This document shows positions 1-57,720 of a stretch of DNA of 64,000 nucleotides, in pieces. The notes under the pieces are model-generated. The model was given only the letters and a program-made list of their open reading frames with translations, did not search any database and was not told the DNA's origin. How positions within the stretch are numbered: position 1 is the first letter of the stretch; the number at the start of each line of letters is the position of its first letter. The position numbers and the translations under genes are program-made. Source of the DNA: Dehalococcoidia bacterium (GTDB taxonomy: Bacteria; Chloroflexota; Dehalococcoidia; Lucifugimonadales; UBA3495); assembly GCA_003523055.1 (NCBI GenBank), contig DPHC01000008.1:5967-69966 (forward strand), written 5' to 3'.

Positions 1-257
1 TATTTATATACCCAGATTATTTTAACCAAAACATTATGCGTTGGGAACTTTATAATGCATGCTGGACCGTGAAGTCCAAATCAGAAATGATTAGCGCATT
101 GACCAATATATATAACAAAGCATCTGCAACTCCTTATGGAACCAATGAAATTAATCATTTCCTCACTCAAGAGATACACGGAGGTACTGAAAATGCTGAT
201 GTGTTGTCAAATTATGTTGAACACATCAGCAATGTAGCTATGGGACAGACCTATTAA
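1..257 (+). CDS. C-terminal fragment of an unknown protein, truncated by the window edge
   Basis: The frame of the 36..257 ORF has no stop back to position 3, so the gene probably starts upstream of the window. No recognisable motif. Confidence 0.4.
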   Translation, partial: FIYPDYFNQNIMRWELYNACWTVKSKSEMISALTNIYNKASATPYGTNEINHFLTQEIHGGTENADVLSNYVEHISNVAMGQTY

Positions 258-1960
258 TGATATATAGGCATCTACTAAACTTAACTTTAATCCATAAAAT
301 CAAGGTGGGCAAATTAGTCATATTGAATTTCCTAATACCTCCGTTAGAGTTGTCTTTATTAGGATTAGTATTTCTCATACTCACCGCTTCTAAAGTGCCC
401 GAAATACCGGAGTTTTTCAATGACTATATCAGCATAGTACCTACCCTCATCCAGTACATCTTAATCCTAGCTATTCTAACTTTTGCATTAGTTTTGTTTT
501 GGGCTTTTCTCAGAATATATAGAACAAGAATTCAAGCTTTCACTAGATATAATATATATAGTGAACAAGCCAATCAAATAAGTGAAACATATTTCAACAT
601 ACCTGGAGATGCTGAATTATCTGAAAAGAATGAGGAAATCGCTAATTTAATCATACATCTGTCTGGCGGAGCATCAGCTCTGTATATGGCATGGATTGGA
701 TTTCTATCGGCAGTTTTCGGAGTGATTGTATTAGCAACCACTGTGTTACTCAGTTCATTCACCTTAGGAATCATTGCATCAATAATCGGACTGTTTTCAG
801 TTTTCATAAATTTTAAAAACTTTTCTCAAATGCAAAGCATCGGACAAACTAAAATAGCTACTCATGAACAAGTTTTGTTCGAAGTTAACCAAAATATTAG
901 AAGTTTCCAATTAATTAAATTCGACAACCTAATATCCCACATCACGAATAAATTAAAACTTGTCATTCAAAAAGATTGGCAATGGAGAGTTGATAAACGC
1001 CGAGCAGTTGAAAAAATTAAAGTATTATCTGATAGCTTTGGAATATTGTCTCTCCTAATTATAATAACCACTTCATCAATTTTTTTAAAAATACCTGCAG
1101 AACAATTAGTTATACTTCTCCTAATATTCAATCGATTAAGAAGCTATTTTTCTGAAGCACAAACTCACTGGGTCAATATCAGAGAACATAAACCAGCCAC
1201 CATTGAATTACTCAGCAGTCTGTCTAGATTTGTGAAATATTCAACTATAGACAATGCTGCAATCAGTAATCTTCATAGAATAGAGTTAAAGAATGTAGGT
1301 TTTTCATATTCGGATACTCCGATAATAAAGAGTGTTTCTGCCTTGATAACCAAAGGAGATAGAATACTACTTAAAGGACCTTCAGGAGAAGGTAAATCCA
1401 CACTTTTAAAATTAATTACAGGCTACTACCAGCCAACCACGGGGCAAATAATATTCAACAATTTACAAAAACAAAAACCTGATATTCAATCTATAGTGGG
1501 AGGAATTTTTTATTCAGCGAATGACATGTATATGCCAAACATACCACTGCGTGAAATAGTAGACCCCTTAAACATTCTAACTCAAAACCAGCTAGAAAAA
1601 ATATTAAAAAATGTATGCTTATACGACTTATTAAATGAACCAAAGATATTAAATGAATCTGTAGGTGATAATGGCAGCTACTTATCACTCGGGCAACGTC
1701 AACGTTTATTCCTTTCCAGAATATATCTAATGGAACCTTCTATGGTCATTTTAGATGAAGCTACTTCCAATCTTGATTCAGACACTGAAAACGAAGTACT
1801 GAAAAATCTAATGGATCATGTCGGTGAAGAAGCCATTATAATTTTTGCATCCCATCATACGCCATCACATTTTACTTTCAATAAAGCATTCACAGTATCT
1901 TCTGGAACAGTAATTCAAGAAAAAATTACCTCAAAAAAGGAATCATTCATTGATATATAA
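257..1960 (+). CDS. Fused ABC exporter (N-terminal multi-TM permease plus C-terminal ATPase)
   Basis: Hydrophobic N-terminal half. Walker A GPSGEGKST, ABC signature LSLGQRQR, Walker B ILDEATSNLD, H-loop ASHH. The ATG overlaps the upstream stop (TAATG). Confidence 0.85.
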   Translation: MIYRHLLNLTLIHKIKVGKLVILNFLIPPLELSLLGLVFLILTASKVPEIPEFFNDYISIVPTLIQYILILAILTFALVLFWAFLRIYRTRIQAFTRYNIYSEQANQISETYFNIPGDAELSEKNEEIANLIIHLSGGASALYMAWIGFLSAVFGVIVLATTVLLSSFTLGIIASIIGLFSVFINFKNFSQMQSIGQTKIATHEQVLFEVNQNIRSFQLIKFDNLISHITNKLKLVIQKDWQWRVDKRRAVEKIKVLSDSFGILSLLIIITTSSIFLKIPAEQLVILLLIFNRLRSYFSEAQTHWVNIREHKPATIELLSSLSRFVKYSTIDNAAISNLHRIELKNVGFSYSDTPIIKSVSALITKGDRILLKGPSGEGKSTLLKLITGYYQPTTGQIIFNNLQKQKPDIQSIVGGIFYSANDMYMPNIPLREIVDPLNILTQNQLEKILKNVCLYDLLNEPKILNESVGDNGSYLSLGQRQRLFLSRIYLMEPSMVILDEATSNLDSDTENEVLKNLMDHVGEEAIIIFASHHTPSHFTFNKAFTVSSGTVIQEKITSKKESFIDI

Positions 1961-2726
1961 ACGAGTTATAAATAAATTACGTAAAATAGCTTCGCCGACT
2001 CCTAATGTACCTACATCACTCAACCATTTACATGGTTTACAATCCGCTGTCGACTACGCAAATTCACAATCAGAATCGTCTGGCACTTCGTACTCAGATT
2101 ATTTGATTCTATATACGCACATTAAAGAGACTAAACCAAAGTACGTATTAGAATGTGGAACAGGAAAATCAACTTTCGTTATTGCACAAGCAATGTTAGA
2201 AAACCAATTAGAAAATCCGAACACACCTGAGTTTGATAAAATGAAATTAATATCAATGGAAGATAAATATGAATGGTACGAAAAATCCGTTAATATACTC
2301 CCAGAAAAGTTTCAAGAATTCGTTGAAATCCATCACTCAGAACTAACGTCTTATAGTTATTCATTATTAAACGGGATAATTTACAAAGATATACCCGACC
2401 TGCCTTACGATTTTGTCTTTATAGATGGACCTGACCAAAGTGGTGGGACAAATGTAACAGCATGTGACATAGATTTCATAAAAATTGTTAAAAACTCTAA
2501 TAATCCAGTAAGTGCTCTAATTGATAATCGGAAGCATACTATTTTGGCCTGCACTTTAGCATTTGGGCAAGACAAAGTCTCTTTTTATCCGGAGCTGGCT
2601 CTAGGCTATGTGAAGCCAGTTACTCAATCTGACTTGATAATAGCCGATAAAATGGCAATTCGAGCAACTTGGTTTAAAAACGGGCTTATTTCTTTAGAGA
2701 AAGGGAAACACATAAATTATTTATGA
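1950..2726 (+). CDS. Putative class I SAM-dependent methyltransferase
   Basis: VLECGTGKSTF glycine-rich SAM-binding-like motif and FVFIDGPDQ acidic strand. TTG start overlaps the ABC gene end, and the start is uncertain. Confidence 0.5.
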   Translation: MIYKRVINKLRKIASPTPNVPTSLNHLHGLQSAVDYANSQSESSGTSYSDYLILYTHIKETKPKYVLECGTGKSTFVIAQAMLENQLENPNTPEFDKMKLISMEDKYEWYEKSVNILPEKFQEFVEIHHSELTSYSYSLLNGIIYKDIPDLPYDFVFIDGPDQSGGTNVTACDIDFIKIVKNSNNPVSALIDNRKHTILACTLAFGQDKVSFYPELALGYVKPVTQSDLIIADKMAIRATWFKNGLISLEKGKHINYL

Positions 2727-3892
2727 CTTCTTCAGAAAATCCTCAATTTTTATTTTTGGTCGGTGCTCCCAGATCGGCTAACAGTGCGGTACATGCGCTA
2801 TTAGATAGTCATCCAGGCATACTTACATGGCCAGTAGAATGCCACTTTTTTACCGTTTTCAAACAAGTAGCAGGTGAATCCAAAACCGCACCTGTAAAAG
2901 AACTAAATAAAAGATTTATAGAGCATTTTGTTGATAGATTTCGTGAGAGATTAAGCCTCAATACTGTGCAACTCAAAGACAATGTATTTCAAATTTCAAA
3001 CATGTTTTCAGGTTTTGACATTCCGAAATTTATAAAAGAATTGGAATCAAATGCTAGTGACCAAATGACTGCATTAGAATATCTTACTTTTGTATTTTCT
3101 TCCTTTCATCAATGCAGTAATCAATATAAAAATACAAAAGTAAGATATTATTCAATGTTATTGACTTCACGCGGATTCGATTGGACCAATCCTGATGTAC
3201 TTAAACATTCTCGGCTAATATTTCCATACAGACCGTCTATAGAAAGTTATGGTTCATTAAGGGAAAACTATTTAAAGACGATTACTCCTAATGAATTTTT
3301 CCACATCAATGCGAAAAAGGGAATGTTGTATTGGATGAACACATATAAAAAAATATCTGACCATGCAAACAAATATAATAATCATTCAAATTTCCACGTT
3401 CTCAAAGTGTCAGATCTACGGACAAATCAAGAAAAAACAGTAAACAAATTATACGAATTCTTAAATATCAAACAACATAACTCTATGAACACCATGACCA
3501 TTTTAGGATTACCGTATGGAGGCAACGCTAGGGATGCTTCTCTAAATACTGGCCGCATTGCAAAAAAACCCAGCACCCTTCTATATCCTATATCAAGATT
3601 TGAACGACATTGCTTCCAAAAAATCAAATTGCACGATTTCGATAACGATCAAACAATATTCATTCCTCACTCAACATTAAGAATGGTATCATTAGCTATT
3701 TACTCAAGCCTATGGGAAATAAAGGGGAAATTCAAAGAAAATCATTACAATACTCCCTCTCGTTTAAAATTTATACACTGGAGGATTAAACTTTTAATTA
3801 AATTCCTTAAAATACAAAACATTCTACAAAATGAAGATACTCTAAAGTCATTCTCTGATAAACATGGTGATCCCATGGATTCTTTCGGGTAA
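2723..3892 (+). CDS. Sulfotransferase-fold protein (PAPS-type nucleotide-binding motifs, atypical)
   Basis: N-terminal FLVGAPRSANSAVHALLDSHPGI resembles the 5'-phosphosulfate-binding loop GxxRSGTT. A later YRPSIESYGS resembles the 3'-phosphate-binding RxPxxxxS motif. ATGA overlap with the upstream gene. Confidence 0.6.
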   Translation: MTSSENPQFLFLVGAPRSANSAVHALLDSHPGILTWPVECHFFTVFKQVAGESKTAPVKELNKRFIEHFVDRFRERLSLNTVQLKDNVFQISNMFSGFDIPKFIKELESNASDQMTALEYLTFVFSSFHQCSNQYKNTKVRYYSMLLTSRGFDWTNPDVLKHSRLIFPYRPSIESYGSLRENYLKTITPNEFFHINAKKGMLYWMNTYKKISDHANKYNNHSNFHVLKVSDLRTNQEKTVNKLYEFLNIKQHNSMNTMTILGLPYGGNARDASLNTGRIAKKPSTLLYPISRFERHCFQKIKLHDFDNDQTIFIPHSTLRMVSLAIYSSLWEIKGKFKENHYNTPSRLKFIHWRIKLLIKFLKIQNILQNEDTLKSFSDKHGDPMDSFG

Positions 3893-3901
3893 CCCAAATT
3901 G

Positions 3902-6900
3902 ATGGCAGCAAACATTAAAAATAATGTTAGTTTAGTTGTGTTAGATTGCTCCAGAGGAAATCGACGCTTAGATCAAAGACAAAGTCACCCTACAGCTTTA
4001 ACCCATATAAAAGATGAATCGACAATTTTAGATTGGACTAAACATTTTATTAATGTAAATGGTATTCATCATGTCACTTACATTGGTGGATACCAAATTC
4101 AGAAAGTAATGGAAAACTATTCTGACTTCCATTTTATATACCATAAATTTTGGGAAAGCACGGGGGAAATACGTGGATTGGATCTACTGCCAGAAGACGA
4201 TGACAAAGACTTAATCATTTTAAGAGCATCAAGCATTATAGTACCTGAAGCATTAACAGCATTAACAATTGAGACCAACAAAATATGTATTGGTAACAAT
4301 ACCGATTTAGAGACTGGGGACAATTTCAGCGGAGTACTTTACATCCCGCAAACATTGCGCAATGCATTTCAAAAACAAATCACAAAAATATCTTCAAAAG
4401 GTTCTTCATATAATTTAGAGGATTTATTACACACCTTACCTGAAACGCTACCTTGTTACACTAAATCGTTAAACTCACTAGTCGCTCCCATTGACAGCCC
4501 AATTGATCTAAGCAGAACCATTTTCCAAGGCAAAGCACAAACTTTAGAACAGGTAGGTCCTTTATTGAAGTCCTCGTCTGTTCTAAAACAATATAGGTTT
4601 TCTCACAAAACATGGATCGACCATCCCCAAAAAGTGATCTTAAATATTTTAACCGATTTCCCTGGAAAATCAGTGATCATACGAAGTACTTCCCAATCTG
4701 AAGATACGTTGATGAATTCGAATGCTGGTATATTCAAAACTGTTTTGAACATACCATCTGATAACAGTTTGTTACTCAAGAACGCCATAGAAGAAGTATT
4801 CGCCAGTTATGCTATAACTGATTTGATCAAGCCATCCGATGAGATATTTATACAGGAATTCCAAAGCAATTTATCTTCTAGTGGTGTTATTTTTACTAGA
4901 GATTTAGAATCCTCTGCTCCCTATATTCTAATAAATATAGATAGAACAAGCGGGAAATCTGACACAGTTACCGCTGGCACTGCTGGTGAAATAGAAACAA
5001 TTTTTATCAGTAAAAATAAACTTCATACTCAAACAGATTTTCAGGATTTAGAAATCAATGCCTGTGTGGCATTGATTTCAGAGCTAGAATACCTCACTAA
5101 CATGACAGATTTAGATATCGAATTCGGAATAGATATCAACAATACGATGTACTTGTTCCAAGTGCGTCCAATTTCAACCAAGGCAAGAAAATATATATTA
5201 CAAGACTCAGATCTATTTGACCAAATTGCGAATATTCAAGAGTTCATCAATGCCTTACCCATAATAAATCATGAAACTTTGGGCAAACACGCTCTTTTAG
5301 GAGCAATGACTGATTGGAATCCCATTGAAATGCTTGGAGCCACTCCAAGACCGCTTGCGTTATCTCTTTACCAAAAACTAATAGGGCGGCAAGCCTGGTC
5401 CATGGCGCGAGAACAATTAGGGTATCAAAAAGTAGGCAAAAACCAACTAATACATTCATTAGGCGGAATACCATATGTAAACATCCAATTGAGCCTCAAT
5501 TCATTCTTACCAAATGGAATCGACCGCGATACTGGAGAAAAATGGATTAACCATTGTTTAGACAAACTTCAAAAAAACCCGGAACTCCATGACAAAGTAG
5601 AATTTGAGATAACTCCTACCTGTATGGACCTAAATTTCGACAAGTATCTGGAGGAGCTTAATAGCCTTAATTTAACCAAATTACAAATTTCTAATTTCAA
5701 AATCTCAATGCAAAATTTGACTAATAATATACTTACTGAAAAAGTAATAAACTTAAACGAAGAATTATCAGCCCTAAAAGTATTAGAGCACAAATTGGAA
5801 CCTTGGGGTACCTTACATCCCCACACCATACCTGAATTAAGCGCTAAGATTACACATCTAACTACAATATGCGAAGAAATGGGTGTTTTACCTTTTGCCA
5901 AACTCGCAAGATGTGCATTCATATCAATATCAATGCTGAAGTCTTTGGTAGAACTGAAAATTATAACCGATGCAGAACTATCTGAAATCTACAAAAATAT
6001 ACCAACTATTGCTACTGACTTAACAGTTCACATGGGCCTCTACCAATCCGGAAAATTAACATTACAACAATTTCTAAAACAATACGGCCACTTAAGACCA
6101 AGCTCTTATGATATAACTTCTCCCAATTATGCAAATGGGCATGAGCAATATTTTAAAACAGGATCAGTTCCCCAATTAGAACAAAAATCCAATAGTGCTG
6201 AAGAATGCAGTGCGATATTAAGTAGTCATTCAAAAAAAATAGACGAACGTTTATTAGAGTCAGGCCTAACCATAAATACTGATACGCTAATCAAATTCAT
6301 AATAAAAAGTATACAAGGTAGAGAACAAGCTAAGTTTGAATTCATGAAAATTGTGGACAACATTCTCGAGTCTACAACTAAATTGGGACATCTCTTAGAT
6401 CTAGACAGGGACCAAATGTCGTTTTTAAACATCGAAGAATTAGAAAGACTTTCTTCAGAAAGCGCGAGTCCTGCAATAAAATCAGAATTATTAAGAATAA
6501 CAGAACATAATGAAAAAAAATGGAACCTTACTTGCCATACTAAATTGCCTCATTTAATAACTCCTAAAACGGATATTGGGTATTTTGAATACTCAAAGAC
6601 AGCTCCAAATTTTATATCCAATTCACGTATCATATCTAATTCTCTTTATTTAGAAAATAATCAAGTTGAATCTCAGCTGTCCGGAAAAATAATTCTAATC
6701 TCATCTGCTGACCCCGGATATGACTGGATATTCGGTCATGGTATAACAGGTTTAATCACAGAATATGGTGGTGCAGCATCTCACATGTCAATTAGGGCCG
6801 CAGAATTTGGAATACCAGCAGCAATCGGATGCGGTAAATTGTTATTTGACAAATTAAAAAACCAATCAGTTATTGAATTAGATTGCCTAAATAAAGTACT

Positions 6901-6919
6901 CCGAGGAATTTCATGTTAA
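3902..6919 (+). CDS. PEP-utilising-enzyme family protein (ATP-grasp plus swivelling phosphohistidine domain). L-glutamine kinase (Cj1418)-like, with an extra N-terminal domain
   Basis: C-terminal mobile-domain motif LITEYGGAASHMSIRAAEFGIPAAIGCG (catalytic His). Central PPDK_N/ATP-grasp-like region. No PEP/pyruvate TIM-barrel is apparent. About 200 aa of N-terminal nucleotidyltransferase-like extension. A TTG at 3899 is an alternative start. Confidence 0.7.
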   Translation: MAANIKNNVSLVVLDCSRGNRRLDQRQSHPTALTHIKDESTILDWTKHFINVNGIHHVTYIGGYQIQKVMENYSDFHFIYHKFWESTGEIRGLDLLPEDDDKDLIILRASSIIVPEALTALTIETNKICIGNNTDLETGDNFSGVLYIPQTLRNAFQKQITKISSKGSSYNLEDLLHTLPETLPCYTKSLNSLVAPIDSPIDLSRTIFQGKAQTLEQVGPLLKSSSVLKQYRFSHKTWIDHPQKVILNILTDFPGKSVIIRSTSQSEDTLMNSNAGIFKTVLNIPSDNSLLLKNAIEEVFASYAITDLIKPSDEIFIQEFQSNLSSSGVIFTRDLESSAPYILINIDRTSGKSDTVTAGTAGEIETIFISKNKLHTQTDFQDLEINACVALISELEYLTNMTDLDIEFGIDINNTMYLFQVRPISTKARKYILQDSDLFDQIANIQEFINALPIINHETLGKHALLGAMTDWNPIEMLGATPRPLALSLYQKLIGRQAWSMAREQLGYQKVGKNQLIHSLGGIPYVNIQLSLNSFLPNGIDRDTGEKWINHCLDKLQKNPELHDKVEFEITPTCMDLNFDKYLEELNSLNLTKLQISNFKISMQNLTNNILTEKVINLNEELSALKVLEHKLEPWGTLHPHTIPELSAKITHLTTICEEMGVLPFAKLARCAFISISMLKSLVELKIITDAELSEIYKNIPTIATDLTVHMGLYQSGKLTLQQFLKQYGHLRPSSYDITSPNYANGHEQYFKTGSVPQLEQKSNSAEECSAILSSHSKKIDERLLESGLTINTDTLIKFIIKSIQGREQAKFEFMKIVDNILESTTKLGHLLDLDRDQMSFLNIEELERLSSESASPAIKSELLRITEHNEKKWNLTCHTKLPHLITPKTDIGYFEYSKTAPNFISNSRIISNSLYLENNQVESQLSGKIILISSADPGYDWIFGHGITGLITEYGGAASHMSIRAAEFGIPAAIGCGKLLFDKLKNQSVIELDCLNKVLRGISC

Positions 6920-7578
6920 TAGCCGTTTCGATGCGCGTAACTGAAAATAATACGTACGTTGAACAACGTGATAGCCTTAGCCACGACTGGGCTCAACTAT
7001 TTAATGCGATATCAGTGACACCAATACTAATACCTAATTTAATTGAGGATCCTACAAAATATTTAAAAGATCTTCCAATATCTGGATTAATACTAACCGG
7101 AGGAGAATCCGTAATAGAGAATGACACTTCAACCCCAATCACTGCGTATAAAAAACGAGATGACACAGAACTTAACCTTTTAAGTTATGCAAGTGAAAAT
7201 AAAATACCGGTTTTGGGTACTTGCAGAGGCCTTCAATTAATAAACAGATTTTTTAATGGTAAAAATAGTTCAAGAATAAACCAAACCCATAGTCACAAAG
7301 TAGCATGCAATCATGATATAACAATTCTGACTAATTCAATTATTCCTGATATGTCTAAGCAAATAATTTCTGTAAACTCTTACCACGAAGACGGTGTTTT
7401 AATAGAAGAAATAAGTTCAGAGCTTAGAGCGTTTGCAACTTGGAATAACGAAACAGTGGAAGGAATATATCATCCCGAATTACCCATTTTGGCCATACAA
7501 TGGCATCCTGAAAGAAATCCTGAAATAACTTCATTAGACGAGAAAATAATCAATCACTGGGTCGAATTATGCAACTGA
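6913..7578 (+). CDS. Class I glutamine-amidotransferase-like / peptidase C26 hydrolase (Cj1417-like gamma-glutamyl-CDP-amidate hydrolase candidate)
   Basis: Nucleophile elbow PVLGTCRGLQLIN and a His in IQWHPER. Size about 220 aa. Position between the kinase-like and nucleotidyltransferase genes. Confidence 0.7.
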   Translation: MLIAVSMRVTENNTYVEQRDSLSHDWAQLFNAISVTPILIPNLIEDPTKYLKDLPISGLILTGGESVIENDTSTPITAYKKRDDTELNLLSYASENKIPVLGTCRGLQLINRFFNGKNSSRINQTHSHKVACNHDITILTNSIIPDMSKQIISVNSYHEDGVLIEEISSELRAFATWNNETVEGIYHPELPILAIQWHPERNPEITSLDEKIINHWVELCN

Positions 7579-8309
7579 TAATATTAGCTGCAGGCATGGG
7601 GTCCAGACTTAAACCCATAACAGATAATGTCCCTAAGGGATTAGTACAAGTTAACGGCAAATCAATACTAGAGTGGCAGGTTGATATAGCCCGACAGTTG
7701 GATATAACCGACATATGCATCGTAACTGGATATAAATCTGAATGCATTGACATACCTGAAACAACTACGATTCATAACCCTCAGTACAATACCACAAACA
7801 TGACACATTCTTTATTTTGTGCTCAAGAGTATTTTAAAGATGAATTCGTATTATCATATGGAGACATTATTTATTCTAAAAAAATTATGGAGAAATTATT
7901 AGATTCAAATGCACCAATATCCATAGTTGTTGATGACAATTGGAGATCATATTGGGAGGACAGATTCGATAATCCACTAGATGACGCAGAAAGTTTAACA
8001 ATAGCTAACAACCATATAACATCTATAGGGCAAAAACCAACTAGTTTAAACGATATAGAATCACAATATATAGGATTAATGTCTTTTAAGAACACAGGAG
8101 TGGCCTCATTAGTAGACTCTCATTCCGAGGTTCGCAGACATAATCCTTCTATTGCTCAACACATGTACATGACCGACTTACTACAATATATGATAAACAA
8201 AGAAATAAATCTCACTCCAGTCCATATTTCTAGTGGTTGGATTGAAATTGATTCATTAAAAGACCTTGAATTAGCTAAAATCTTGTTACCTAAAATAATT
8301 TTGTCATGA
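7569..8309 (+). CDS. Sugar/phospho-ligand nucleotidyltransferase (Cj1416-like CTP:phosphoglutamine cytidylyltransferase candidate)
   Basis: N-terminal LIILAAGMGSRLKPITDNVPKGLVQVNGKSIL is the canonical NTP-transferase signature. About 246 aa. Confidence 0.7.
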   Translation: MQLIILAAGMGSRLKPITDNVPKGLVQVNGKSILEWQVDIARQLDITDICIVTGYKSECIDIPETTTIHNPQYNTTNMTHSLFCAQEYFKDEFVLSYGDIIYSKKIMEKLLDSNAPISIVVDDNWRSYWEDRFDNPLDDAESLTIANNHITSIGQKPTSLNDIESQYIGLMSFKNTGVASLVDSHSEVRRHNPSIAQHMYMTDLLQYMINKEINLTPVHISSGWIEIDSLKDLELAKILLPKIILS

Positions 8310-9109
8310 AAAAAGTTTACAGATCTGAATCCAATATTGATTATTGGAATAGAAGATGGAGTGAATCAGGAACAGATGCTAAGGCATTCTTAGATCCTAA
8401 CATATACCCTGTAAAATACTCTAATTTAATAGTACAGGATAAAACCGAATGTTGTTTAGAAATTGGATCTGGGGTCGGAAGAATATTAAAGCATTACTTC
8501 TATCAAGGATTTAACATAACAGGAATTGAGAGAAGCAACATCGGTGTAGATACTATGCTAGCATCCGATAAAAATTTACCAGTTCAAATAGGTGATGCTG
8601 TAAATTTGCCATACGCAGATTCTACATTCGATAATGTGCTAGCATTTGGAGTCTTTCATAACATTGAAGATGAAGTGGCTCTAAAAAATAGTATTTCTCA
8701 ATGCAGTAGGGTATTAAAGCCGTCCGGAAGGTTTTGTATTTCCATCAGACCTGACAACTTAGAAATGAACTTAAATGAATGGTATTGGAAAATTTCTGGC
8801 TATAAAAAACAAAATCATGGAAATGACTCTACTACTTTTCATAGATGGTTGTTCAAAAAAAATGAATTTCAGCGAATCCTATCTAACAACAATTTACACA
8901 CAGTTAAAGTGCATGCAGCTCGCAATGTATCCATACTCTACCGGATAAAATGGCTTAGAACACAAAATAAAGACGAAACCTATCTGCGTTCTAATGGATA
9001 TAAGTTGAATTTCTTAGGAGCATCAATCGATAGATTGATAACCTTCATAATGCCTAACCAATTTTGCAATGTGTTTGTTTTCATAGGAGAGAAGCGACCC
9101 CAATGGTGA
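8306..9109 (+). CDS. Class I SAM-dependent methyltransferase
   Basis: CLEIGSGVGRIL motif I, acidic IERS, and DNVLAFGVFHNIED, a Methyltransf_11-like core. ATGA overlap upstream. Confidence 0.75.
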   Translation: MKKVYRSESNIDYWNRRWSESGTDAKAFLDPNIYPVKYSNLIVQDKTECCLEIGSGVGRILKHYFYQGFNITGIERSNIGVDTMLASDKNLPVQIGDAVNLPYADSTFDNVLAFGVFHNIEDEVALKNSISQCSRVLKPSGRFCISIRPDNLEMNLNEWYWKISGYKKQNHGNDSTTFHRWLFKKNEFQRILSNNNLHTVKVHAARNVSILYRIKWLRTQNKDETYLRSNGYKLNFLGASIDRLITFIMPNQFCNVFVFIGEKRPQW

Positions 9110-9621
9110 TCTGGATTATTGGGATGCCCGGAGCTGGCAAAACAGCAGTTGGTGCACTACTGTACAAACAAATATCATCTGACTACAAAAATACAGTTTT
9201 TATAGATGGTGATGATATACGCAATATCATGCTAAATGACTTAGGGCATACTATAGAAGACCGTAAAATAAATGCTACCAGAATTCGTAATCTCTGTAAG
9301 CATTTAGACAAGCAAAATATAAATATCGTGTGCTCTATAATGTCTATATTCCAAGAAGATCGGGATTGGAATCGCGAAAATTATGAATCATATTACGAAG
9401 TATTCTTAAACACTCCTTTGGAAATTTTAATTACCCGAGACCAAAAAGGTCTGTACTCGAAAGCTTATGACAATCAAATTAAAGATGTTGTCGGAATAGA
9501 TATACCTTTTAATCCACCTACTAATCCTGACTTGATTATAAACAATGACCCTAAAATTATAAATTTACAACAAATAACTGAAACGATTTATGACGCTATA
9601 CAAAAACAATTATCAAAATGA
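9103..9621 (+). CDS. Adenylylsulfate (APS) kinase-family kinase (Cj1415-like cytidine diphosphoramidate 3'-kinase candidate)
   Basis: P-loop IIGMPGAGKTAVG, then FIDGDDIRN, DRKINATRIRNL and RDQKGLYSKA, which follow the CysC pattern. The ATG at 9103 overlaps the upstream stop (ATGGTGA). The ORF track starts earlier, at 9064. Confidence 0.75.
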   Translation: MVIWIIGMPGAGKTAVGALLYKQISSDYKNTVFIDGDDIRNIMLNDLGHTIEDRKINATRIRNLCKHLDKQNINIVCSIMSIFQEDRDWNRENYESYYEVFLNTPLEILITRDQKGLYSKAYDNQIKDVVGIDIPFNPPTNPDLIINNDPKIINLQQITETIYDAIQKQLSK

Positions 9622-10232
9622 TTATGTACGTTTATACACTTACTAACATACTAAAAAAGAGACAAGACTACATGTACACTCCCTGGCATGGGAAAGATTT
9701 CATAACCGAGTACATTTCGAACAGGAAGCACGCATTGTCAAAGCTAGAAGACAATTATACGACCGCAGTAAGTGAATACGAATTAATCAAAGATATAGAA
9801 TCAACATTACAAATTCAATCAAGTCAAAAAACTCAAAATATAAACACTACCGCTATGTTGCTGGCATTAATTAACAATAATCTAGAACTCACAGATCATG
9901 CATCCGCATTATTTAAAATAGAATCTTTGCTAAAATCATTCGAAGTCAGAAAAAAGATTTACACTAAATACAATGAACTGTTTAAACCTTTGTCTAAAGA
10001 ATTCTCAAATTTAGAAAATTATATATTATTTTGTATAGTGTTACTAAAACAATTCACATTAACTAACGAATACAGGTATCTAAACACTATACTAAAGCTC
10101 AATGATCTGATTATATCAACAGGACTTGAGTCAGTAACAAAAACTAACAAGGCATTAATATCATTACTATTAACAAGAGAATTATCTTGTATACAGAAAC
10201 TTCTACAAGAAAGATCCATACAAGATGAATAA
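9618..10232 (+). CDS. Hypothetical protein
   Basis: 204-aa ORF, translationally coupled at both ends (ATGA overlaps). No recognisable motif. Confidence 0.5.
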   Translation: MIMYVYTLTNILKKRQDYMYTPWHGKDFITEYISNRKHALSKLEDNYTTAVSEYELIKDIESTLQIQSSQKTQNINTTAMLLALINNNLELTDHASALFKIESLLKSFEVRKKIYTKYNELFKPLSKEFSNLENYILFCIVLLKQFTLTNEYRYLNTILKLNDLIISTGLESVTKTNKALISLLLTRELSCIQKLLQERSIQDE

Positions 10233-10935
10233 GATTAATATCGGGTTATTAGGAGTGGATTCAATACGAACCAGAGCGTATATATCTGTGTTAACAAAAT
10301 TAAATATTACTCTAGAAGAAGCAATCATATTAAGTGGAGGGAAAAGCCATACACCTGAAGTAATCGAAAAAAGTTCTTATTTCAATAATCAAATTCACTC
10401 CATAAAAATGCTTCAAGCTTTAGGAACTCCTATAAATATATTAGAAACTTCAGACATAAATGATACAACAGTAGTTACAGCTTTAAATCATTCACGCCCT
10501 AAGTTATTTATATACTCAGGAAGTGGTGGTTCAATTATTAAAAATAATATTCTATCAACCCAAAAACAATTCCTACACATACATCCAGGCATATTGCCTG
10601 AATACCGCGGTAGCACAACTATTTACTATAGTCTTTTAAAAGAAAACAAATGTGGTGCCTCGGGTATAATTCTAGATGAAAATATAGATACTGGACCAGT
10701 AATTGCTAGCAAAGAATTCCCACCACCAGATAACAGAAAGTCTATAGATTATGAATATGATCCTTATGTAAGATCTGCATTATTATCAGACATATTGACT
10801 TATTATCTACATAACGGAAGGCTACCTGAAAAAATCAACCAAAACAGAGAAGGTTTTAATTACTACATTATGCATCCACTGTTAAGACACATTACCATGC
10901 TTTCACAAAGTCACCCATCAAATAGCGGAGTATGA
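10225..10935 (+). CDS. Formyltransferase-fold protein (N-formyl/N-acyl transferase candidate)
   Basis: LHIHPGILPEYRGSTT and DENIDTGPVI match the HxSLLPxxRG ... DxGxI core of Fmt/PurN-type formyltransferases. Confidence 0.65.
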   Translation: MNKINIGLLGVDSIRTRAYISVLTKLNITLEEAIILSGGKSHTPEVIEKSSYFNNQIHSIKMLQALGTPINILETSDINDTTVVTALNHSRPKLFIYSGSGGSIIKNNILSTQKQFLHIHPGILPEYRGSTTIYYSLLKENKCGASGIILDENIDTGPVIASKEFPPPDNRKSIDYEYDPYVRSALLSDILTYYLHNGRLPEKINQNREGFNYYIMHPLLRHITMLSQSHPSNSGV

Positions 10936-15744: not shown

Positions 15745-17208
15745 ATGGATGCAGCAAACAAAAGAATAGCTTTATTAATAGAACAAGGATTCGGGGCACG
15801 AATACTATTACAAACAGATATACTAGAAACACTAATTAATTCTAACTTAAACCCTATCATCCTTACATCTGGGCCCGAAGCAATAGGAAATTACTTAAAA
15901 GATACTAAATTCTCTAAAATACCTATTCATCATTTAAATATTGAAAAAAACAAAACCCTAAAGCTAAACACTCTCATACGATTATTATCGTTCATCAGAC
16001 TTTTTTCTTTAAAAACTCGAACAGTTAAAGATTTGTTCAAAATGGAATTGTCAGATAGTAAAGCAAGTCGGAACATTAATAATAAATTATTTATGATATT
16101 GGTAAGATTCTTCGTTTACATTTCTAAAATAAATTATAGATTAATTTTTTTATTCATCCGGATAGAAAATAGAATTGCATTAAGAAACAGTAATGAGCTA
16201 TTTTTTTCCAAATATAAACCAGACGTACTGTTAACAACAAGCATCGGAACGTTTGATAATGACGCTAATCTAATTCGAGAAGCTAAATCCAGAGGTGTCA
16301 AAGTAATTAGTTACATCTTAAGCTGGGATAACAGTACAGTACGTGGATTCGGAATTAATTTAACTGACGACATAATCACATGGTCCGATACGATGAAAAA
16401 AGAATTAACTACATTGCATCACCTACCAGAAAATAAAATACATGTTGGAGGAGTCCCTCACTATGATACTTATGCCCGGCCTGATGCGTTGTGGAGTAAA
16501 CACGAATTGTTTCATAACATGAAAATACCGGTTACCAAAAACGTGATCTTATTAGGCACCAAATCTCCCAATGCATACAAATCCAACATGCAAGTAGCCG
16601 AAATAATATGTGATTTGATAAGTTCTGAGGAATCACTAAAAGATTATATTTTAGTAGTCAGATTACATCCCCTATATTTCAGATCCTCAGGAAATGGAAG
16701 TAATTTAATATCAGAAGATTGGAATTCGCTTGTTGAAAAATTTGGTTCAGAAGTCATTAACATGGATTATCCGCAGATAATTGGAAACGACTTACGTTAC
16801 TTTATGCCACAAGAAGAAATGGCTAAATTGGGATCCTTATTAAAGCATAGTAAAGTTGTAGTAAACATGTTTTCAACATTGAACATAGAGTCAAGTATTT
16901 TTGATATCCCAACAATAAATGTATGTTTCCAAGATGATTCCATGAAGAGCAATGATTATAAACAAGCTAGATTCAACATAGTCGCAGATTCTATACAAAC
17001 ACACAATCAAAGAGTAATCCAATATGATGCCACTGTGATAGCTTACGAAAAACATCAACTGCTTGAATTACTTAAGGCATCTTTATCACATCCAGAGCAA
17101 AAAAAACAAGGTCGAGCAAAACTTGTTAACTCGGAATGTGGAGAGAATTTAGGAGAATCTGGGGTATATATTGGTAAACTAATATCCAAATTATCCTATT
17201 CCGTATGA
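15745..17208 (+). CDS. Uncharacterised GT-B-like protein (candidate glycosyl/ulosonate transferase), paralog A
   Basis: 487 aa. Conserved SWDN motif (ILSWDNSTVRGF) and a C-terminal segment FSTLNIESSIFDIPTINV, typical of the GT-B/TagF-like nucleotide-sugar half. The family assignment is tentative. Confidence 0.45.
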   Translation: MDAANKRIALLIEQGFGARILLQTDILETLINSNLNPIILTSGPEAIGNYLKDTKFSKIPIHHLNIEKNKTLKLNTLIRLLSFIRLFSLKTRTVKDLFKMELSDSKASRNINNKLFMILVRFFVYISKINYRLIFLFIRIENRIALRNSNELFFSKYKPDVLLTTSIGTFDNDANLIREAKSRGVKVISYILSWDNSTVRGFGINLTDDIITWSDTMKKELTTLHHLPENKIHVGGVPHYDTYARPDALWSKHELFHNMKIPVTKNVILLGTKSPNAYKSNMQVAEIICDLISSEESLKDYILVVRLHPLYFRSSGNGSNLISEDWNSLVEKFGSEVINMDYPQIIGNDLRYFMPQEEMAKLGSLLKHSKVVVNMFSTLNIESSIFDIPTINVCFQDDSMKSNDYKQARFNIVADSIQTHNQRVIQYDATVIAYEKHQLLELLKASLSHPEQKKQGRAKLVNSECGENLGESGVYIGKLISKLSYSV

Positions 17209-17218
17209 TTTATTACAT

Positions 17219-18682
17219 ATGACAATATTTATACAAGCCTACCGATCATTTAGCATGAGATATATCATCGGTACCGACATATTTAAAACACTTATATCAA
17301 GTAATTGCCAAATAATCATTTTCGTATTAGAAGAGGATTTCCAATATTTTACAGATATATTTAAAAACACTTCTGTAATAGTAGAGTCTGTACATTACAA
17401 AGAATTGTTCAGTGATCTAAGAAAAAACCGCATAACAAATTTTTTAAACCTACTGAGAGTTCTTACATCTGGCCGACAAAGTACGCTAATAAATACCAAC
17501 ATATCAATATACAAACGTGACTACAAAAAACAATTTTCATACGGATTTGGTATTTATATTTATAAACTAATTACTATAAGCAGTTTCATAACTTGTAATT
17601 CAATCTTGGCTAGAAAAGTACTTTCATTTTTATTATCTATATCTTTTAAAGGTAAAATTTATGATAAATACTTTGAAAAATACAATCCTAAAACATTAAT
17701 AATATCTTCATTAGGTTACGGAATAGATCTTCATATGATGCATGCAGCAAAACGCCACAAATGCCGAATTATATCCATACCTCATAGCTGGGATAATCCG
17801 ACCACCAAAGGATATCGCGGGCCTAAGCCTGATTTAGTGTTCGCATGGACCAATCGCATGGCTACAGAAATTGCAGCTTTCCACGATCTTCCTAAAAATA
17901 TTATTAAAGTGTCGGGAGTTGCGCACTGGGATGATTACTTTAACGGAACATTGATTCTAAATAACAAGGACTCATTCATTATAAAGCACAATCTAGACCC
18001 GAATAAAAAAGTCTTATTTTACGCTCTAAGCGGACCAGCAAATTTTGAAAAACGGCTTGAAGTAATCGAAGCAATATTAGGCATTATTAAAAACAATCCA
18101 AGTAATTATAATCTACAATTACTTGTCAGGTTTCATCCTTTACACGTCCACAGGCATACATCAGGAGCAACATGGATGGAGCTACATGAAAACGATATAA
18201 GTGCTCTAAAAATGAAATATGGAAACCTAGTTACCTTTTGGGTCCCTAAGGAACCTCACAAAAATCAAATAAGCCAATTAGGAATGTCCGATATGCATGA
18301 TATGGCGTCAGCTATTCATTATTCAGATGTTTTAATTCAAGAATACTCAACCTTAATACTAGAATCTACAATATTTGATAAACCAACCATAAATATCAGC
18401 ATGTTCGCTTACCGTCAAACTGATCATTCGAATTTATTAGCTACTTTGATACATTTACAATATATATTGAAGTATGACACGTCAACAACTATACAAACTT
18501 TCGAGGAACTAAAAACAACAATTTTTAAATATTTAGACAATCCAGAAATTAAACAAAATGAACGTAGGAAATTGTTTAATAACGAACTTAATATTAACCC
18601 AGGAAGCGCCGGGAACTTCATTGGAAACAGCATTTTAAAGTACATGGACGATCTAGTAGTTCAAGGATCAAGCTCTCAATAA
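17219..18682 (+). CDS. Uncharacterised GT-B-like protein, paralog B (tandem duplicate of the previous gene)
   Basis: Also exactly 487 aa. Same landmarks (IPHSWDNPTTKGY, RFHPLH, YSTLILESTIFDKPTINI) at equivalent positions. Confidence 0.45.
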   Translation: MTIFIQAYRSFSMRYIIGTDIFKTLISSNCQIIIFVLEEDFQYFTDIFKNTSVIVESVHYKELFSDLRKNRITNFLNLLRVLTSGRQSTLINTNISIYKRDYKKQFSYGFGIYIYKLITISSFITCNSILARKVLSFLLSISFKGKIYDKYFEKYNPKTLIISSLGYGIDLHMMHAAKRHKCRIISIPHSWDNPTTKGYRGPKPDLVFAWTNRMATEIAAFHDLPKNIIKVSGVAHWDDYFNGTLILNNKDSFIIKHNLDPNKKVLFYALSGPANFEKRLEVIEAILGIIKNNPSNYNLQLLVRFHPLHVHRHTSGATWMELHENDISALKMKYGNLVTFWVPKEPHKNQISQLGMSDMHDMASAIHYSDVLIQEYSTLILESTIFDKPTINISMFAYRQTDHSNLLATLIHLQYILKYDTSTTIQTFEELKTTIFKYLDNPEIKQNERRKLFNNELNINPGSAGNFIGNSILKYMDDLVVQGSSSQ

Positions 18683-56025: not shown

Positions 56026-56102
56026 AGTGTCACACTCCGAAGTGTTTGCATTAAAGCCTCAGGTACAACGAGTTGGGTGATTTTATCAAAGCTCATTATA
56101 AC

Positions 56103-56139
56103 AGGGGCAAATTATTTTTAATAAAATAAGCTTGCCCCT
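56103..56139 (-). terminator. Possible stem-loop downstream of glnA (weak terminator candidate)
   Basis: AGGGGCAA (56103-56110) pairs with TTGCCCCT (56132-56139) across a 21-nt AT-rich loop. The trailing U-tract on the minus strand is poor. Confidence 0.3.
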
Positions 56140-56165
56140 ATCTTCTTGCCATAACTTATATAAAA

Positions 56166-57599: not shown

Positions 57600-57650
57600 A
57601 TCATTTCCTCCTTAATTTGCGAACTATACTGATGTTCGAAGTAGTAAAAT

Positions 57651-57699: not shown

Positions 57700-57720
57700 T
57701 TATGATTGATACCGAGTTTC

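What the first reader, a model, noticed from the sequence alone, without database searches (positions are those of the whole stretch)
2723..3892. Sulfotransferase-fold protein as candidate phosphoramidyl transferase using the PAPS analogue
A protein with sulfotransferase-type nucleotide-binding motifs sits directly upstream of, and is translationally coupled to, the MeOPN-like cofactor genes.
No sulfate adenylyltransferase (CysDN/Sat) is present in the window, so the adjacent APS-kinase homolog is more economically explained as the CDP-amidate kinase.
The product, 3'-phospho-cytidine-5'-diphosphoramidate, is a structural mimic of PAPS. A sulfotransferase fold is therefore the obvious scaffold to bind it and transfer the phosphoramidyl group to a sugar hydroxyl.
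The 5'-phosphosulfate loop is atypical (GAPRSANS instead of GxxRSGTT), consistent with an altered leaving group or nucleobase.
As far as I recall, the Campylobacter transferases (Cj1421/Cj1422) are not described as sulfotransferase-family. This would then be a non-orthologous transferase solution.
Basis: inference. Interest (0 to 1): 0.8.

Follow-up and report, generated by a model that had tools for sequence, protein, structure and literature searches.

The report
Sulfotransferase-fold gene beside phosphoramidate cofactor genes
A real sulfotransferase-fold enzyme sits inside an operon that makes a PAPS-like phosphoramidate donor; such pairings recur across many bacteria and archaea, so it is a testable candidate for the still-uncharacterised enzyme that attaches phosphoramidate to surface sugars, though ordinary sulfation is not excluded.

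Summary
Window 2723-3892(+) encodes a 389-aa sulfotransferase-fold protein: Pfam Sulfotransfer_3 above its cutoff, an AF2 model at pLDDT 91.7, and the top 50 PDB fold matches all sulfotransferases. It lies in one operon with homologs of Cj1418, Cj1417, Cj1416 and Cj1415. The window has no ATP sulfurylase. The APS-kinase homolog carries the signature of glutamine-kinase-linked kinases (DLGH), not of true APS kinases (DLGF).

For:
- In 79 genomes chosen only for a glutamine-kinase homolog, sulfotransferase-fold genes of 11 subfamilies sit directly beside the module in 16. That is 16/203 adjacent versus 5/795 other positions.
- They favour loci that have the 3'-kinase (12/36 versus 4/43).
- A Geobacter locus fuses a sulfotransferase domain to a methyltransferase.

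Against:
- The nearest sister clade sits in a syntenic island where the seven-gene phosphoramidate cassette is replaced by APS kinase, ATP sulfurylase and a PK-like gene.
- The "atypical" GAPRSANS loop does not track the donor.
- No donor-specific residues emerged.

My best reading (about 0.55) is a phosphoramidyl transferase using 3'-phospho-CDP-amidate. The main rival (about 0.3) is an ordinary PAPS-dependent sugar sulfotransferase.

The parts
257..1960 (+). ABC exporter (fused permease and ATPase, 567 aa). It is a conserved island neighbour of the sulfotransferase-fold gene.
   Evidence: Pfam ABC_tran, 81.8 bits. It lies next to the ST gene in type I-a, II and III islands.
1950..2726 (+). 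Methyltransf_24 (TylF-like) methyltransferase-like protein. Its stop codon overlaps the ST start codon.
   Evidence: Pfam 24.6 bits, just below the cutoff. ATGA overlap. A 61%-identical ortholog exists in the Sat-type island, so this gene belongs to the island and not to the phosphoramidate cassette.
2723..3892 (+). The finding: a 389-aa sulfotransferase-fold protein. It is a candidate phosphoramidyl transferase, or else a sugar sulfotransferase.
   Evidence: for the fold. for the contexts.
3899..6919 (+). L-glutamine kinase homolog (Cj1418 type). It carries an extra N-terminal domain of about 200 aa related to NTP transferases.
   Evidence: NF004508, 799 bits, over residues 204-1002; PEP-utilizers and PPDK_N domains. 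Homologs of about 1000 aa carry PF12804 at the N-terminus.
6913..7578 (+). Gamma-glutamyl-CDP-amidate hydrolase homolog (Cj1417 type).
   Evidence: Peptidase_C26, 103 bits. NF045546, 110 bits, below its equivalog cutoff of 250.
7569..8309 (+). Nucleotidyltransferase (Cj1416-type cytidylyltransferase homolog).
   Evidence: NTP_transf_3 and NTP_transferase. Co-occurs with the glutamine kinase in 77 of 85 sources, meaning 84 fetched loci plus the window.
8306..9109 (+). Methyltransf_11 SAM methyltransferase, a candidate O-methylase of the phosphoramidate.
   Evidence: Pfam 58.3 bits. This cluster is found in 11 of 12 cases in loci that have the kinase.
9064..9621 (+). APS-kinase-fold kinase of the Cj1415 (cytidine diphosphoramidate 3'-kinase) type. 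The real start is probably the ATG near 9100 (MVIWIIG).
   Evidence: APS_kinase, 127.7 bits; NF004041, 168 bits. The DLGH-T motif is shared with the other glutamine-kinase-linked kinases, against DLGF-S in true APS kinases.
9618..10232 (+). Conserved 204-aa protein of unknown function that travels with the kinase.
   Evidence: No Pfam, NCBIfam or PDB match. It is present in 19-22 loci. It is fused to the kinase in L080 and to the formyltransferase-like protein in L065.
10225..10935 (+). Formyltransferase-like protein (Formyl_trans_N). The His and Asp of the catalytic triad are kept; the Asn is replaced by His.
   Evidence: Pfam 37.7 bits. PDB alignment to Fmt and PurN. Present in 33-35 glutamine-kinase loci.
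15745..18682 (+). Two paralogous 487-aa proteins with weak TagF-like / BFO_1060 glycosyltransferase similarity. They are rival transferase candidates, but more likely nonulosonic-acid transferases.
   Evidence: Glyphos_transf E 0.0023, below the cutoff. NF046086, 48.9 bits, below its cutoff of 200. Orthologs also exist in Sat-type islands that lack the phosphoramidate cassette.

Best explanation
The gene encodes a cytoplasmic sulfotransferase-fold group transferase that belongs functionally to the adjacent seven-gene cassette.

The proposed pathway has five steps:
1. The glutamine kinase phosphorylates the amide nitrogen of glutamine.
2. The cytidylyltransferase and the hydrolase convert the product to CDP-amidate.
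3. The Cj1415-type kinase adds the 3'-phosphate, giving 3'-phospho-cytidine-5'-diphosphoramidate, a structural analogue of PAPS.
4. The sulfotransferase-fold enzyme binds this donor. The 5'-PSB loop (R17/S18) holds the 5'-diphosphate and the 3'-PB motif (R170/S178) holds the 3'-phosphate. With Glu39 as general base, the enzyme transfers the phosphoramidyl group in line to a hydroxyl of the nonulosonic-acid-containing glycan made by the same island. Cytidine 3',5'-bisphosphate is released.
5. A neighbouring methyltransferase makes the O-methyl ester, before or after transfer.

What is shown: the fold, the motifs, the operon structure, the kinase class, and the recurrent genomic linkage.

What is inferred: the donor, the acceptor, the catalytic residues' roles, and the order of methylation.
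For: (1) Fold and nucleotide-binding motifs are intact.

(2) The same ST family is attached to the cassette in three different arrangements and in different organisms.
- ST directly 5' of the glutamine kinase in marine Chloroflexota-type islands.
- ST directly 5' of the glutamine kinase in an unrelated dTDP-sugar / PEP-mutase locus, L124.
- ST directly 3' of the formyltransferase-like gene in Planctomycetota L058, in L088/L089, and in L103, which has two ST paralogs.

(3) The pattern is general.
- In 79 species genomes picked only for a glutamine-kinase homolog, sulfotransferase-fold genes lie next to a module gene in 16.
- All ten proteins I sampled were confirmed by Pfam.
- They fall into 11 subfamilies below 30% identity, from Patescibacteria, Chloroflexota, Planctomycetota, Chlamydiales, Proteobacteria and DPANN archaea.
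- They occupy 16 of 203 adjacent positions against 5 of 795 non-adjacent positions in the same loci (odds ratio 13.5, p 4e-8).

(4) They favour loci that encode the 3'-kinase (12/36 versus 4/43, p 0.011). TagF-like transferases, which in their known members use plain CDP donors, favour loci without it (19/43 versus 3/36, p 4e-4).

(5) The three candidate transferase classes (ST-fold, alkaline-phosphatase superfamily, TagF-like) are almost mutually exclusive. The window has no alkaline-phosphatase-type or 384-aa TagF-type gene in any frame.

(6) A Geobacter locus encodes a sulfotransferase domain fused to a SAM methyltransferase right after the cytidylyltransferase. That fusion fits installation of methyl phosphoramidate.

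(7) CysQ-like bisphosphate-nucleotidase genes sit inside several kinase-containing modules, as expected for a PAPS-like cycle.

(8) In a syntenic island the seven-gene cassette and a Sat/APS-kinase/PK cassette are mutually exclusive, while the ST is kept. This is what is expected if the ST depends on whichever local cassette supplies its 3'-phospho-nucleotide donor.

(9) The window's kinase is not of the APS-kinase sequence class.
Against: - The nearest sister clade (39-43% identity) is linked to ATP sulfurylase plus a DLGF-type APS kinase, so close relatives are most simply true sulfotransferases.
- ST identity between the two island types (39-43%) is barely lower than within the phosphoramidate type (46%).
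- A search for positions that separate cassette types found only a handful of weak columns, none clearly in a base-binding site.
- Some family members have no donor cassette within 10 kb (L101, L104, L105).
- Four kinase-less loci also have an adjacent ST.
- Two loci (L056, L121) carry both sulfate-type genes and the phosphoramidate module, so their STs may be ordinary.
- Every motif present is equally compatible with PAPS.
- The linkage statistics count loci, not independent evolutionary events.
- The only genetically proven MeOPN transferases (Cj1421/Cj1422 of Campylobacter, about 590-640 aa) are much longer proteins. Their fold could not be examined here.
Confidence: 0.55

Rival explanations
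1. It is an ordinary PAPS-dependent carbohydrate sulfotransferase that sulfates the nonulosonic-acid glycan. PAPS comes from housekeeping genes elsewhere in the genome. The phosphoramidate cassette is an independent decoration system in the same island, and its transferase is another protein: the unknown 204-aa protein, the formyltransferase-like protein, or one of the 487-aa TagF-like paralogs.
For: - All canonical sulfotransferase motifs are present and the closest folds are PAPS enzymes.
- Sister-clade orthologs sit in a syntenic island with ATP sulfurylase and APS kinase.
- More distant family members sit with TauE, a PK-like gene and an APS kinase.
- There is no clear specificity-changing divergence.
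- Some members have no cassette nearby.
- Two cassette genes have no assigned role and could hide the real transferase.
Against: - It does not explain why sulfotransferase-fold genes of 11 subfamilies are 13-fold enriched at positions touching the module.
- It does not explain why they prefer loci with the 3'-kinase.
- It does not explain why a sulfotransferase is fused to a methyltransferase in such a module.
- It does not explain why the PAPS and phosphoramidate cassettes exclude each other in otherwise orthologous islands.
- The 204-aa and formyltransferase-like proteins also occur alongside alkaline-phosphatase-type or ST-fold candidates, so they look like accessories.
- The 487-aa paralogs are kept in islands that lack the cassette.
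Confidence: 0.3
2. The enzyme accepts both donors, or family members differ in their donor. It is a promiscuous 3'-phospho-nucleotide-dependent group transferase whose product is set by the donor cassette the island carries.
For: - Cassettes are swapped around a conserved ST with no obvious specificity-determining changes.
- The two donors share the 3'-phosphate and 5'-phospho-X geometry. This rests on the established chemistry of PAPS and on the donor shown in the Raushel papers cited.
Against: - Adenine and cytosine, and sulfuryl and phosphoramidyl, differ enough that full promiscuity would be unusual.
- No experimental precedent turned up in the literature searched.
Confidence: 0.1
3. The protein is not a transferase onto the glycan. 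Instead it acts on the cofactor itself or on a small molecule, or it is a non-catalytic nucleotide-binding partner.
For: - The C-terminal third or so (from about residue 260-290 onward) lies outside the Sulfotransfer_3 match. It is mainly family-specific helices of unknown role.
- The acceptor is entirely inferred.
Against: - The catalytic-type residues R17, E39 and R170 are invariant or nearly so across 50 diverse family members.
- The gene always lies in glycan islands next to an exporter.
Confidence: 0.05

Closest known systems
PAPS-dependent sulfotransferases of the Sulfotransfer_3 type (CurM ST, olefin-synthase ST, tyrosylprotein sulfotransferases, mycobacterial Stf enzymes)
   Same: They share the fold (Foldseek probability 1.0, TM 0.4-0.54). 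They share the 5'-PSB loop with Arg-Ser, the 3'-PB Arg...Ser motif, and a Glu a few residues after the conserved His-Pro that aligns with the Glu of CurM ST's PPE segment.
   Different: Identity is only 10-16%. The protein has a family-specific helical C-terminal extension. The family is small: 23 representative clusters at E<=1e-30 among 1.84 billion proteins. It lies in an operon that makes a cytidine phosphoramidate donor rather than PAPS.
Campylobacter jejuni MeOPN transferases Cj1421/Cj1422 and their 81-176 counterparts
   Same: They have the same proposed job and the same kind of neighbours: homologs of Cj1415-1418 plus SAM methyltransferases.
   Different: The Campylobacter proteins are 592-642 aa and phase-variable through poly-G tracts. 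The window protein is 389 aa with no homopolymeric G tract. None of the best 150 hits of the family profile has that length. Sequence or fold homology could not be tested directly.
TagF-like CDP-glycerol glycerophosphotransferases (Pfam Glyphos_transf)
   Same: They transfer a phospho-group from a cytidine diphosphate donor to a hydroxyl. They are the commonest candidate transferase next to glutamine-kinase modules that lack the 3'-kinase.
   Different: The fold is different (GT-B-like). They need no 3'-phosphate. They are nearly absent from kinase-containing modules of the window's type.
Alkaline-phosphatase-superfamily proteins (Pfam Sulfatase, about 590 aa) embedded in other glutamine-kinase modules
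   Same: They hold the same genomic position as the window's ST. They are sometimes between the cytidylyltransferase and the kinase, so they are probably an alternative transferase.
   Different: The fold is unrelated, and these enzymes probably work through a covalent intermediate. None is present in the window.

Membership tests
Sulfotransferase fold (Pfam Sulfotransfer_3, CL0023 P-loop-related) | Profile match above the curated cutoff | tested here: met
   37.9 bits against a cutoff of 27.
Sulfotransferase fold (Pfam Sulfotransfer_3, CL0023 P-loop-related) | Three-dimensional similarity to solved sulfotransferases | tested here: met
   Model at pLDDT 91.7. The top 50 PDB matches are all sulfotransferases, the best at E 3.7e-6.
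Sulfotransferase fold (Pfam Sulfotransfer_3, CL0023 P-loop-related) | 5'-phosphosulfate-binding loop with a basic residue followed by Ser/Thr | tested here: met
   G14-A-P-R17-S18-A-N-S. R17 is conserved in at least 90% of 50 family members. The Gly-Thr-Thr part is replaced in the window's near relatives only.
Sulfotransferase fold (Pfam Sulfotransfer_3, CL0023 P-loop-related) | 3'-phosphate-binding motif (Arg on the strand, Ser on the following helix) | tested here: met
   R170 is invariant and S178 at least 90% conserved. Both align to the CurM ST motif.
PAPS-dependent sulfotransferases (functional class) | Uses PAPS as donor and transfers sulfate | not testable with these tools
   The window has no local PAPS synthesis genes, but the sister clade is Sat-linked. 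Only an assay can decide.
Campylobacter MeOPN transferases (Cj1421/Cj1422) | Sequence or fold homology to Cj1421/Cj1422 | not tested
   No Cj1421/1422 sequence could be fetched: the C. jejuni locus was not among the 80 loci returned. No paper held describes their fold.
Campylobacter MeOPN transferases (Cj1421/Cj1422) | Length of about 590-640 aa with a phase-variable poly-G tract | tested here: not met
   The protein is 389 aa, and the longest G run in the gene is 4. Published lengths are 592-642 aa.
Campylobacter MeOPN transferases (Cj1421/Cj1422) | Encoded next to Cj1415-1418 homologs | tested here: met
MeOPN cofactor pathway (Cj1415-Cj1418), for the neighbouring genes | Glutamine kinase equivalog | tested here: met
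   NF004508, 799 bits against a cutoff of 501.
MeOPN cofactor pathway (Cj1415-Cj1418), for the neighbouring genes | Gamma-glutamyl-CDP-amidate hydrolase equivalog | tested here: inconclusive
   NF045546, 110 bits, is below its cutoff of 250. The right family (Peptidase_C26) is present and co-occurs with the kinase in 72 of 85 sources, meaning 84 loci plus the window.
MeOPN cofactor pathway (Cj1415-Cj1418), for the neighbouring genes | 3'-kinase distinct from true APS kinase | tested here: met
   The DLGH-T...NAxRI signature is shared with most kinases that lie beside glutamine kinases. Sat-linked, CysN-fused and PDB APS kinases have DLGF-S...ENIRR. Whether Cj1415 itself has this signature was not checked.

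The most novel reading that the evidence does not exclude
Sulfotransferase-fold enzymes form a widespread, unrecognised class of phosphoramidyl transferases. They use 3'-phospho-cytidine-5'-diphosphoramidate just as sulfotransferases use PAPS. Related marine bacteria switch the same glycan between sulfate and (methyl)phosphoramidate decoration by swapping the donor-synthesis cassette around a retained transferase.
Probability: 0.45. Interest if true: 0.85.

Novelty: new variant of a known kind. Interest (0 to 1): 0.68.

Why it matters
- The step that puts methyl phosphoramidate onto sugars is still biochemically undescribed. A 2025 paper from the laboratory that solved the cofactor pathway says the decoration enzymology remains to be elucidated.
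- Small, soluble sulfotransferase-fold candidates next to the cofactor genes would make that step directly testable. They would also give the first non-sulfuryl chemistry for this fold.
- The glutamine-kinase pathway, usually described as a Campylobacter peculiarity, has relatives in at least 595 species genomes of bacteria and archaea. These modules carry at least three alternative transferase types, sorted by whether the donor is 3'-phosphorylated.
- If the cassette swap is real, it is a compact natural example of how surface-glycan chemistry diversifies in ocean bacteria.

Tried and rejected
- **PSB loop as a donor signature:** rejected, because the loop varies within cassette types.
- **Specificity-determining positions between cassette types:** only a few weak columns from few sequences; inconclusive.
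- **First AF2 run with five sequences:** pLDDT 58 and unusable. It was replaced by a 50-sequence run.
- **Word-indexed homolog searches of the ST:** only 4 and then 7 proteins. The exhaustive representative search was needed.
- **Metagenome scan with the 19-sequence alignment:** It was repeated with 8 sequences.
- **Cj1421/Cj1422 fold:** literature searches and look-ups were unsuccessful. The Raushel author manuscripts are not held.
- **Attempt to reach a Campylobacter-like locus through a 775-aa low-GC glutamine kinase (P0116):** it gave a different organism, whose locus carries alkaline-phosphatase-type proteins and a separate sulfotransferase.
- **Idea that L017 replaces the ST by an alkaline-phosphatase-type protein:** dropped once a divergent ST was found next to its cassette.
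- **The 487-aa paralogs as the phosphoramidyl transferases:** judged unlikely because they persist in cassette-less islands and look like glycosyltransferases.
- **PDB sequence searches for the 204-aa protein and the glutamine kinase:** no informative match.
Full report
**The gene and its fold.**
- Window 2723-3892(+) is an intact 389-aa ORF.
- It matches Pfam Sulfotransfer_3 above the curated cutoff (37.9 against 27 bits) and Sulfotransfer_1 weakly. It has no NCBIfam match.
- A profile of the family finds CurM ST and tyrosylprotein sulfotransferases in the PDB only weakly. The aligned pieces are exactly the two nucleotide-binding motifs.
- An AF2 model on five sequences was poor. On a 50-sequence alignment it reached pLDDT 91.7 and pTM 0.91.
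- The 50 best PDB fold matches are all sulfotransferases, with TM 0.4-0.54 and 10-16% identity.
- Across 50 family members, R170 is invariant. R17, H30, P37, E39, S178 and E294 are at least 90% conserved.
- R17/S18 form the 5'-PSB loop and R170/S178 the 3'-PB motif. E39 (WPxE) aligns with the Glu of the PPE segment of CurM ST. That this Glu is the catalytic base there is from my memory of the CurM ST work, not tested here.
- The family is small: 204 representative clusters at E<=1e-3 and 23 at E<=1e-30, out of 1.84 billion.

**The surroundings in the window.**
- The ATG overlaps the stop of a Methyltransf_24-like gene. The next gene starts 6-9 nt after the stop.
- Downstream lie, in order:
  - a glutamine-kinase equivalog (NF004508, 799 bits) with an extra N-terminal domain;
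  - a Peptidase_C26 hydrolase;
  - an NTP transferase;
  - a Methyltransf_11 protein;
  - an APS-kinase-fold kinase;
  - a 204-aa protein with no match;
  - a formyltransferase-like protein.
- The rest of the first 49 kb is a glycan island. It holds two NeuB genes, two CMP-sugar synthetases, a radical-SAM enzyme, AsnB, three UDP-GlcNAc 2-epimerases, glycosyltransferases, a carbamoyltransferase and an initiating sugar transferase.
- Core genes follow: LigA, Pth, two glutamine synthetases and Amt.
- No ATP sulfurylase, CysD or CysN domain was found in any ORF of 150 aa or more. Six-frame tblastn with two Sat proteins gave nothing below E 0.8.
- The closest genomes for the glutamine kinase are marine Chloroflexota/Dehalococcoidia MAGs at 53% identity.

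**The kinase.**
- I aligned the APS-kinase-fold proteins from all loci.
- Most of those beside glutamine kinases have DLGH[ST]...R..NA.R or an insertion variant; a few have DLGY or DLGF.
- The Sat-linked kinase of L085, the CysN-fused kinase of L083, a distant kinase in L019 and the PDB APS kinases shown residue by residue have DLGFS..DR.ENIRR.
- The window's kinase (DLGHTIEDRKINATRI) belongs to the first class.
- In solved APS kinases this Phe contacts the adenine of APS. That is my recollection of the P. chrysogenum and human structures, marked as such.

**Near relatives of the ST.**
- The word-indexed search found only four relatives, all marine. All have the same gene order from the ABC exporter to the radical-SAM gene.
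- A family HMM run over 80 genome loci that were fetched with the glutamine kinase found the ST in the two Chloroflexota MAGs. It also found it in a Planctomycetota MAG (L058).
- In L058 the gene order is rearranged: the ST follows the formyltransferase-like gene, but the same ten-gene set is kept.
- P0128 (L088/L089), L100 and L103 repeat that arrangement. L103 has two ST paralogs.
- L124 has a 35%-identical ST, with the same GAPRSANS loop, directly upstream of glutamine kinase-hydrolase-cytidylyltransferase-kinase in an unrelated dTDP-sugar / PEP-mutase locus.
- P0133 lies one gene from a DLGH-type kinase.

**The complication.**
- P0274 (39% identity) and its relatives (L085-87, L095-97, L099) lie in an island that is orthologous to the window's on both sides.
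- The table gives identity to the window for a Sat-type island and for another island of the window's own type:

| Protein | Sat-type island (L096/L085) | Same-type island (L092) |
|---|---|---|
| NeuB | 68-71% | 70% |
| Radical-SAM | 69-77% | not in the fetched locus |
| ABC exporter | 44-47% | 45% |
| ST | 39-43% | 46% |

- That island lacks the seven cassette genes. About 5 kb upstream it carries an APS kinase (DLGF type), ATP sulfurylase (PF01747, 160 bits) and a pyruvate-kinase-barrel protein.
- More distant members (P0146, P0275) sit with TauE, a PK-like gene and an APS kinase.
- L101, L104 and L105 have no donor cassette within 10 kb.
- In an NJ tree the Sat-linked clade is sister to the window's clade. 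The P0127/L124 lineage and the L058-type clade lie outside it.
- Taken with the contexts, the simplest history is an ancestral link to the phosphoramidate cassette with a later replacement by a PAPS cassette. The tree is a simple distance tree and I did not test its support.
- The 5'-PSB loop reads as follows:

| Members | Cassette nearby | Loop |
|---|---|---|
| Window, L124 | phosphoramidate | PRSANS |
| P0127 | not determined (3.6-kb contig) | PRSANT |
| Sat-linked clade | PAPS | PRSSNN |
| L058-type | phosphoramidate | PRSGGS |
| TauE-linked members | TauE, PK-like, APS kinase | PRSGKK |

- So the loop is not a donor signature. A scan for cassette-specific residues was inconclusive.

**The broader pattern.**
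- The glutamine kinase has relatives in at least 595 species genomes.
- Iterative searches seeded with several sulfotransferase types found sulfotransferase-fold genes in many of the 79 usable loci.
- All ten that I sampled were confirmed by Pfam: seven above the cutoff and three just below.
- Sixteen loci have such a gene touching a module gene. They fall into 11 subfamilies that share less than 30% identity over 200 aa, from Patescibacteria, Chloroflexota, Planctomycetota, Chlamydiales, Alpha- and other Proteobacteria, Woesearchaeota and Nanoarchaeota.
- As an internal control within the same loci, 16 of 203 adjacent positions are sulfotransferase-fold, against 5 of 795 others (odds ratio 13.5, Fisher p 4e-8).
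- The three candidate transferase classes sort by whether the locus has the 3'-kinase:

| Candidate transferase | Loci with the 3'-kinase | Loci without it | Fisher p |
|---|---|---|---|
| ST-fold, within 1 gene | 12/36 | 4/43 | 0.011 |
| TagF-like, within 3 genes | 3/36 | 19/43 | 4e-4 |
| Alkaline-phosphatase superfamily, within 1 gene | 8/36 | 2/43 | 0.037 |

- The alkaline-phosphatase-superfamily proteins (about 590 aa) sometimes lie between the cytidylyltransferase and the kinase.
- The three classes hardly ever coincide in one locus.
- These counts are of loci, not of independent events, so the p-values overstate the evidence.
- In Geobacter L074 the gene after the cytidylyltransferase encodes a canonical sulfotransferase domain (GRSG loop, RD...S, RKGxxGEY) fused to a SAM methyltransferase domain.
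- CysQ-like genes occur inside several kinase-containing modules.

**Weighing the evidence.**
- The donor made by the cassette is a 3'-phospho-nucleoside 5'-phospho-X compound, like PAPS.
- A fold that reads the 3'-phosphate and the 5'-phosphate is therefore a natural receiver. The genomic linkage says such folds have been recruited to these modules many times.
- For the window's own protein the case is weaker than for the pattern as a whole, because its closest outgroup is Sat-linked and nothing in the sequence marks a change of donor.
- I put the phosphoramidyl-transferase reading at about 0.55. An ordinary sulfotransferase sharing the island is at about 0.3, dual or lineage-specific donor use at about 0.1, and other roles at about 0.05.
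- Whichever is right for this gene, the cassette swap around a retained ST and the general ST-module linkage are real features of the data.

**Comparison with what is known.**
- MeOPN transferases are known genetically in Campylobacter: Cj1421, Cj1422, CJJ81176_1421 and CJJ81176_1435, at 592-642 aa and phase-variable.
- I found no paper in the held library that describes their fold or links a sulfotransferase to this pathway. Subscription papers, including the cytidine diphosphoramidate kinase paper, are not held.
- In 2025 the decoration enzymology was still described as future work.
- The window protein is a member of the sulfotransferase fold family. Whether it is a member of the PAPS-dependent functional class is untestable here. 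It fails the length and phase-variation features of the Campylobacter transferases.

Noticed in passing
window 3899-4510 (N-terminal ~200 aa of the 1006-aa glutamine kinase homolog): Cj1418 is 779 aa, but this protein and many relatives of about 1000 aa carry an extra N-terminal domain. In some homologs it is recognised as a MobA-like NTP transferase (PF12804) and resembles the Cj1416-type cytidylyltransferase. In the window's copy it gives no Pfam hit and may be degenerate.
   Followed up: partly
window 9618-10935; L080, L125, L065: The unknown 204-aa protein and the formyltransferase-like protein form a conserved pair in about 20-33 glutamine-kinase loci. The 204-aa protein is fused to the kinase in L080 (360 aa) and probably in L125 (404 aa). 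It is fused to the formyltransferase-like protein in L065 (477 aa). This suggests they act on the 3'-phosphorylated cofactor, for example by modifying its nitrogen. Campylobacter has no described equivalent.
   Followed up: partly
L015, L016, L020-22, L025, L027, L030, L035, L037, L038, L051, L059, L067, L081: A TagF-like protein of about 384 aa (Glyphos_transf) accompanies glutamine-kinase modules only where no Cj1415-type kinase is present (15 of 15 loci). These loci usually have two nucleotidyltransferases. This looks like a variant pathway that transfers from the unphosphorylated CDP donor.
   Followed up: partly
L013, L034, L053, L061, L064, L017, L044, L024, L048, L121: Soluble alkaline-phosphatase-superfamily proteins (Pfam Sulfatase, about 575-615 aa) are embedded in or flank kinase-containing modules. 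Their length matches the Campylobacter MeOPN transferases. Whether Cj1421/Cj1422 belong to this superfamily could not be checked.
   Followed up: partly
L085-L087, L095-L097, L099 (about 4.1-7.0 kb in L085); contigs of P0146 and P0275: A pyruvate-kinase-barrel protein (335-444 aa) is co-operonic with an APS kinase. ATP sulfurylase accompanies it in one island type and a TauE-family transporter in another. The role of a PK-like protein in a PAPS-type cassette is unexplained.
   Followed up: no
L074 13705-18033: A 1442-aa Geobacter protein joins a canonical sulfotransferase domain (about residues 65-345) to a SAM methyltransferase domain (407-592), with about 850 further residues of unknown function. 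It lies immediately after the cytidylyltransferase of a kinase-containing module.
   Followed up: partly
L044, L073, L083, L121, L124: CysQ-like inositol-monophosphatase-family genes lie inside or beside kinase-containing glutamine-kinase modules. This fits removal of a nucleoside 3',5'-bisphosphate by-product. The window has none.
   Followed up: no
window 15745-18682: Two tandem paralogs of 487 aa (28% identical) have only sub-threshold TagF-like and BFO_1060 glycosyltransferase similarity. They are conserved in both island types and paired with two NeuB and two CMP-sugar synthetase genes, so they are probably nonulosonic-acid transferases of an undescribed family.
   Followed up: partly
L103 7294-8562 and 9947-11173: One metagenomic locus has two paralogous sulfotransferase-fold genes after the cassette. 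This recalls the two MeOPN transferases with different acceptor positions in Campylobacter.
   Followed up: no
window 54721-58932 (- strand): Two different glutamine synthetase genes (434 and 477 aa) lie next to an ammonium transporter, just outside the glycan island. They are unrelated to the finding.
   Followed up: no
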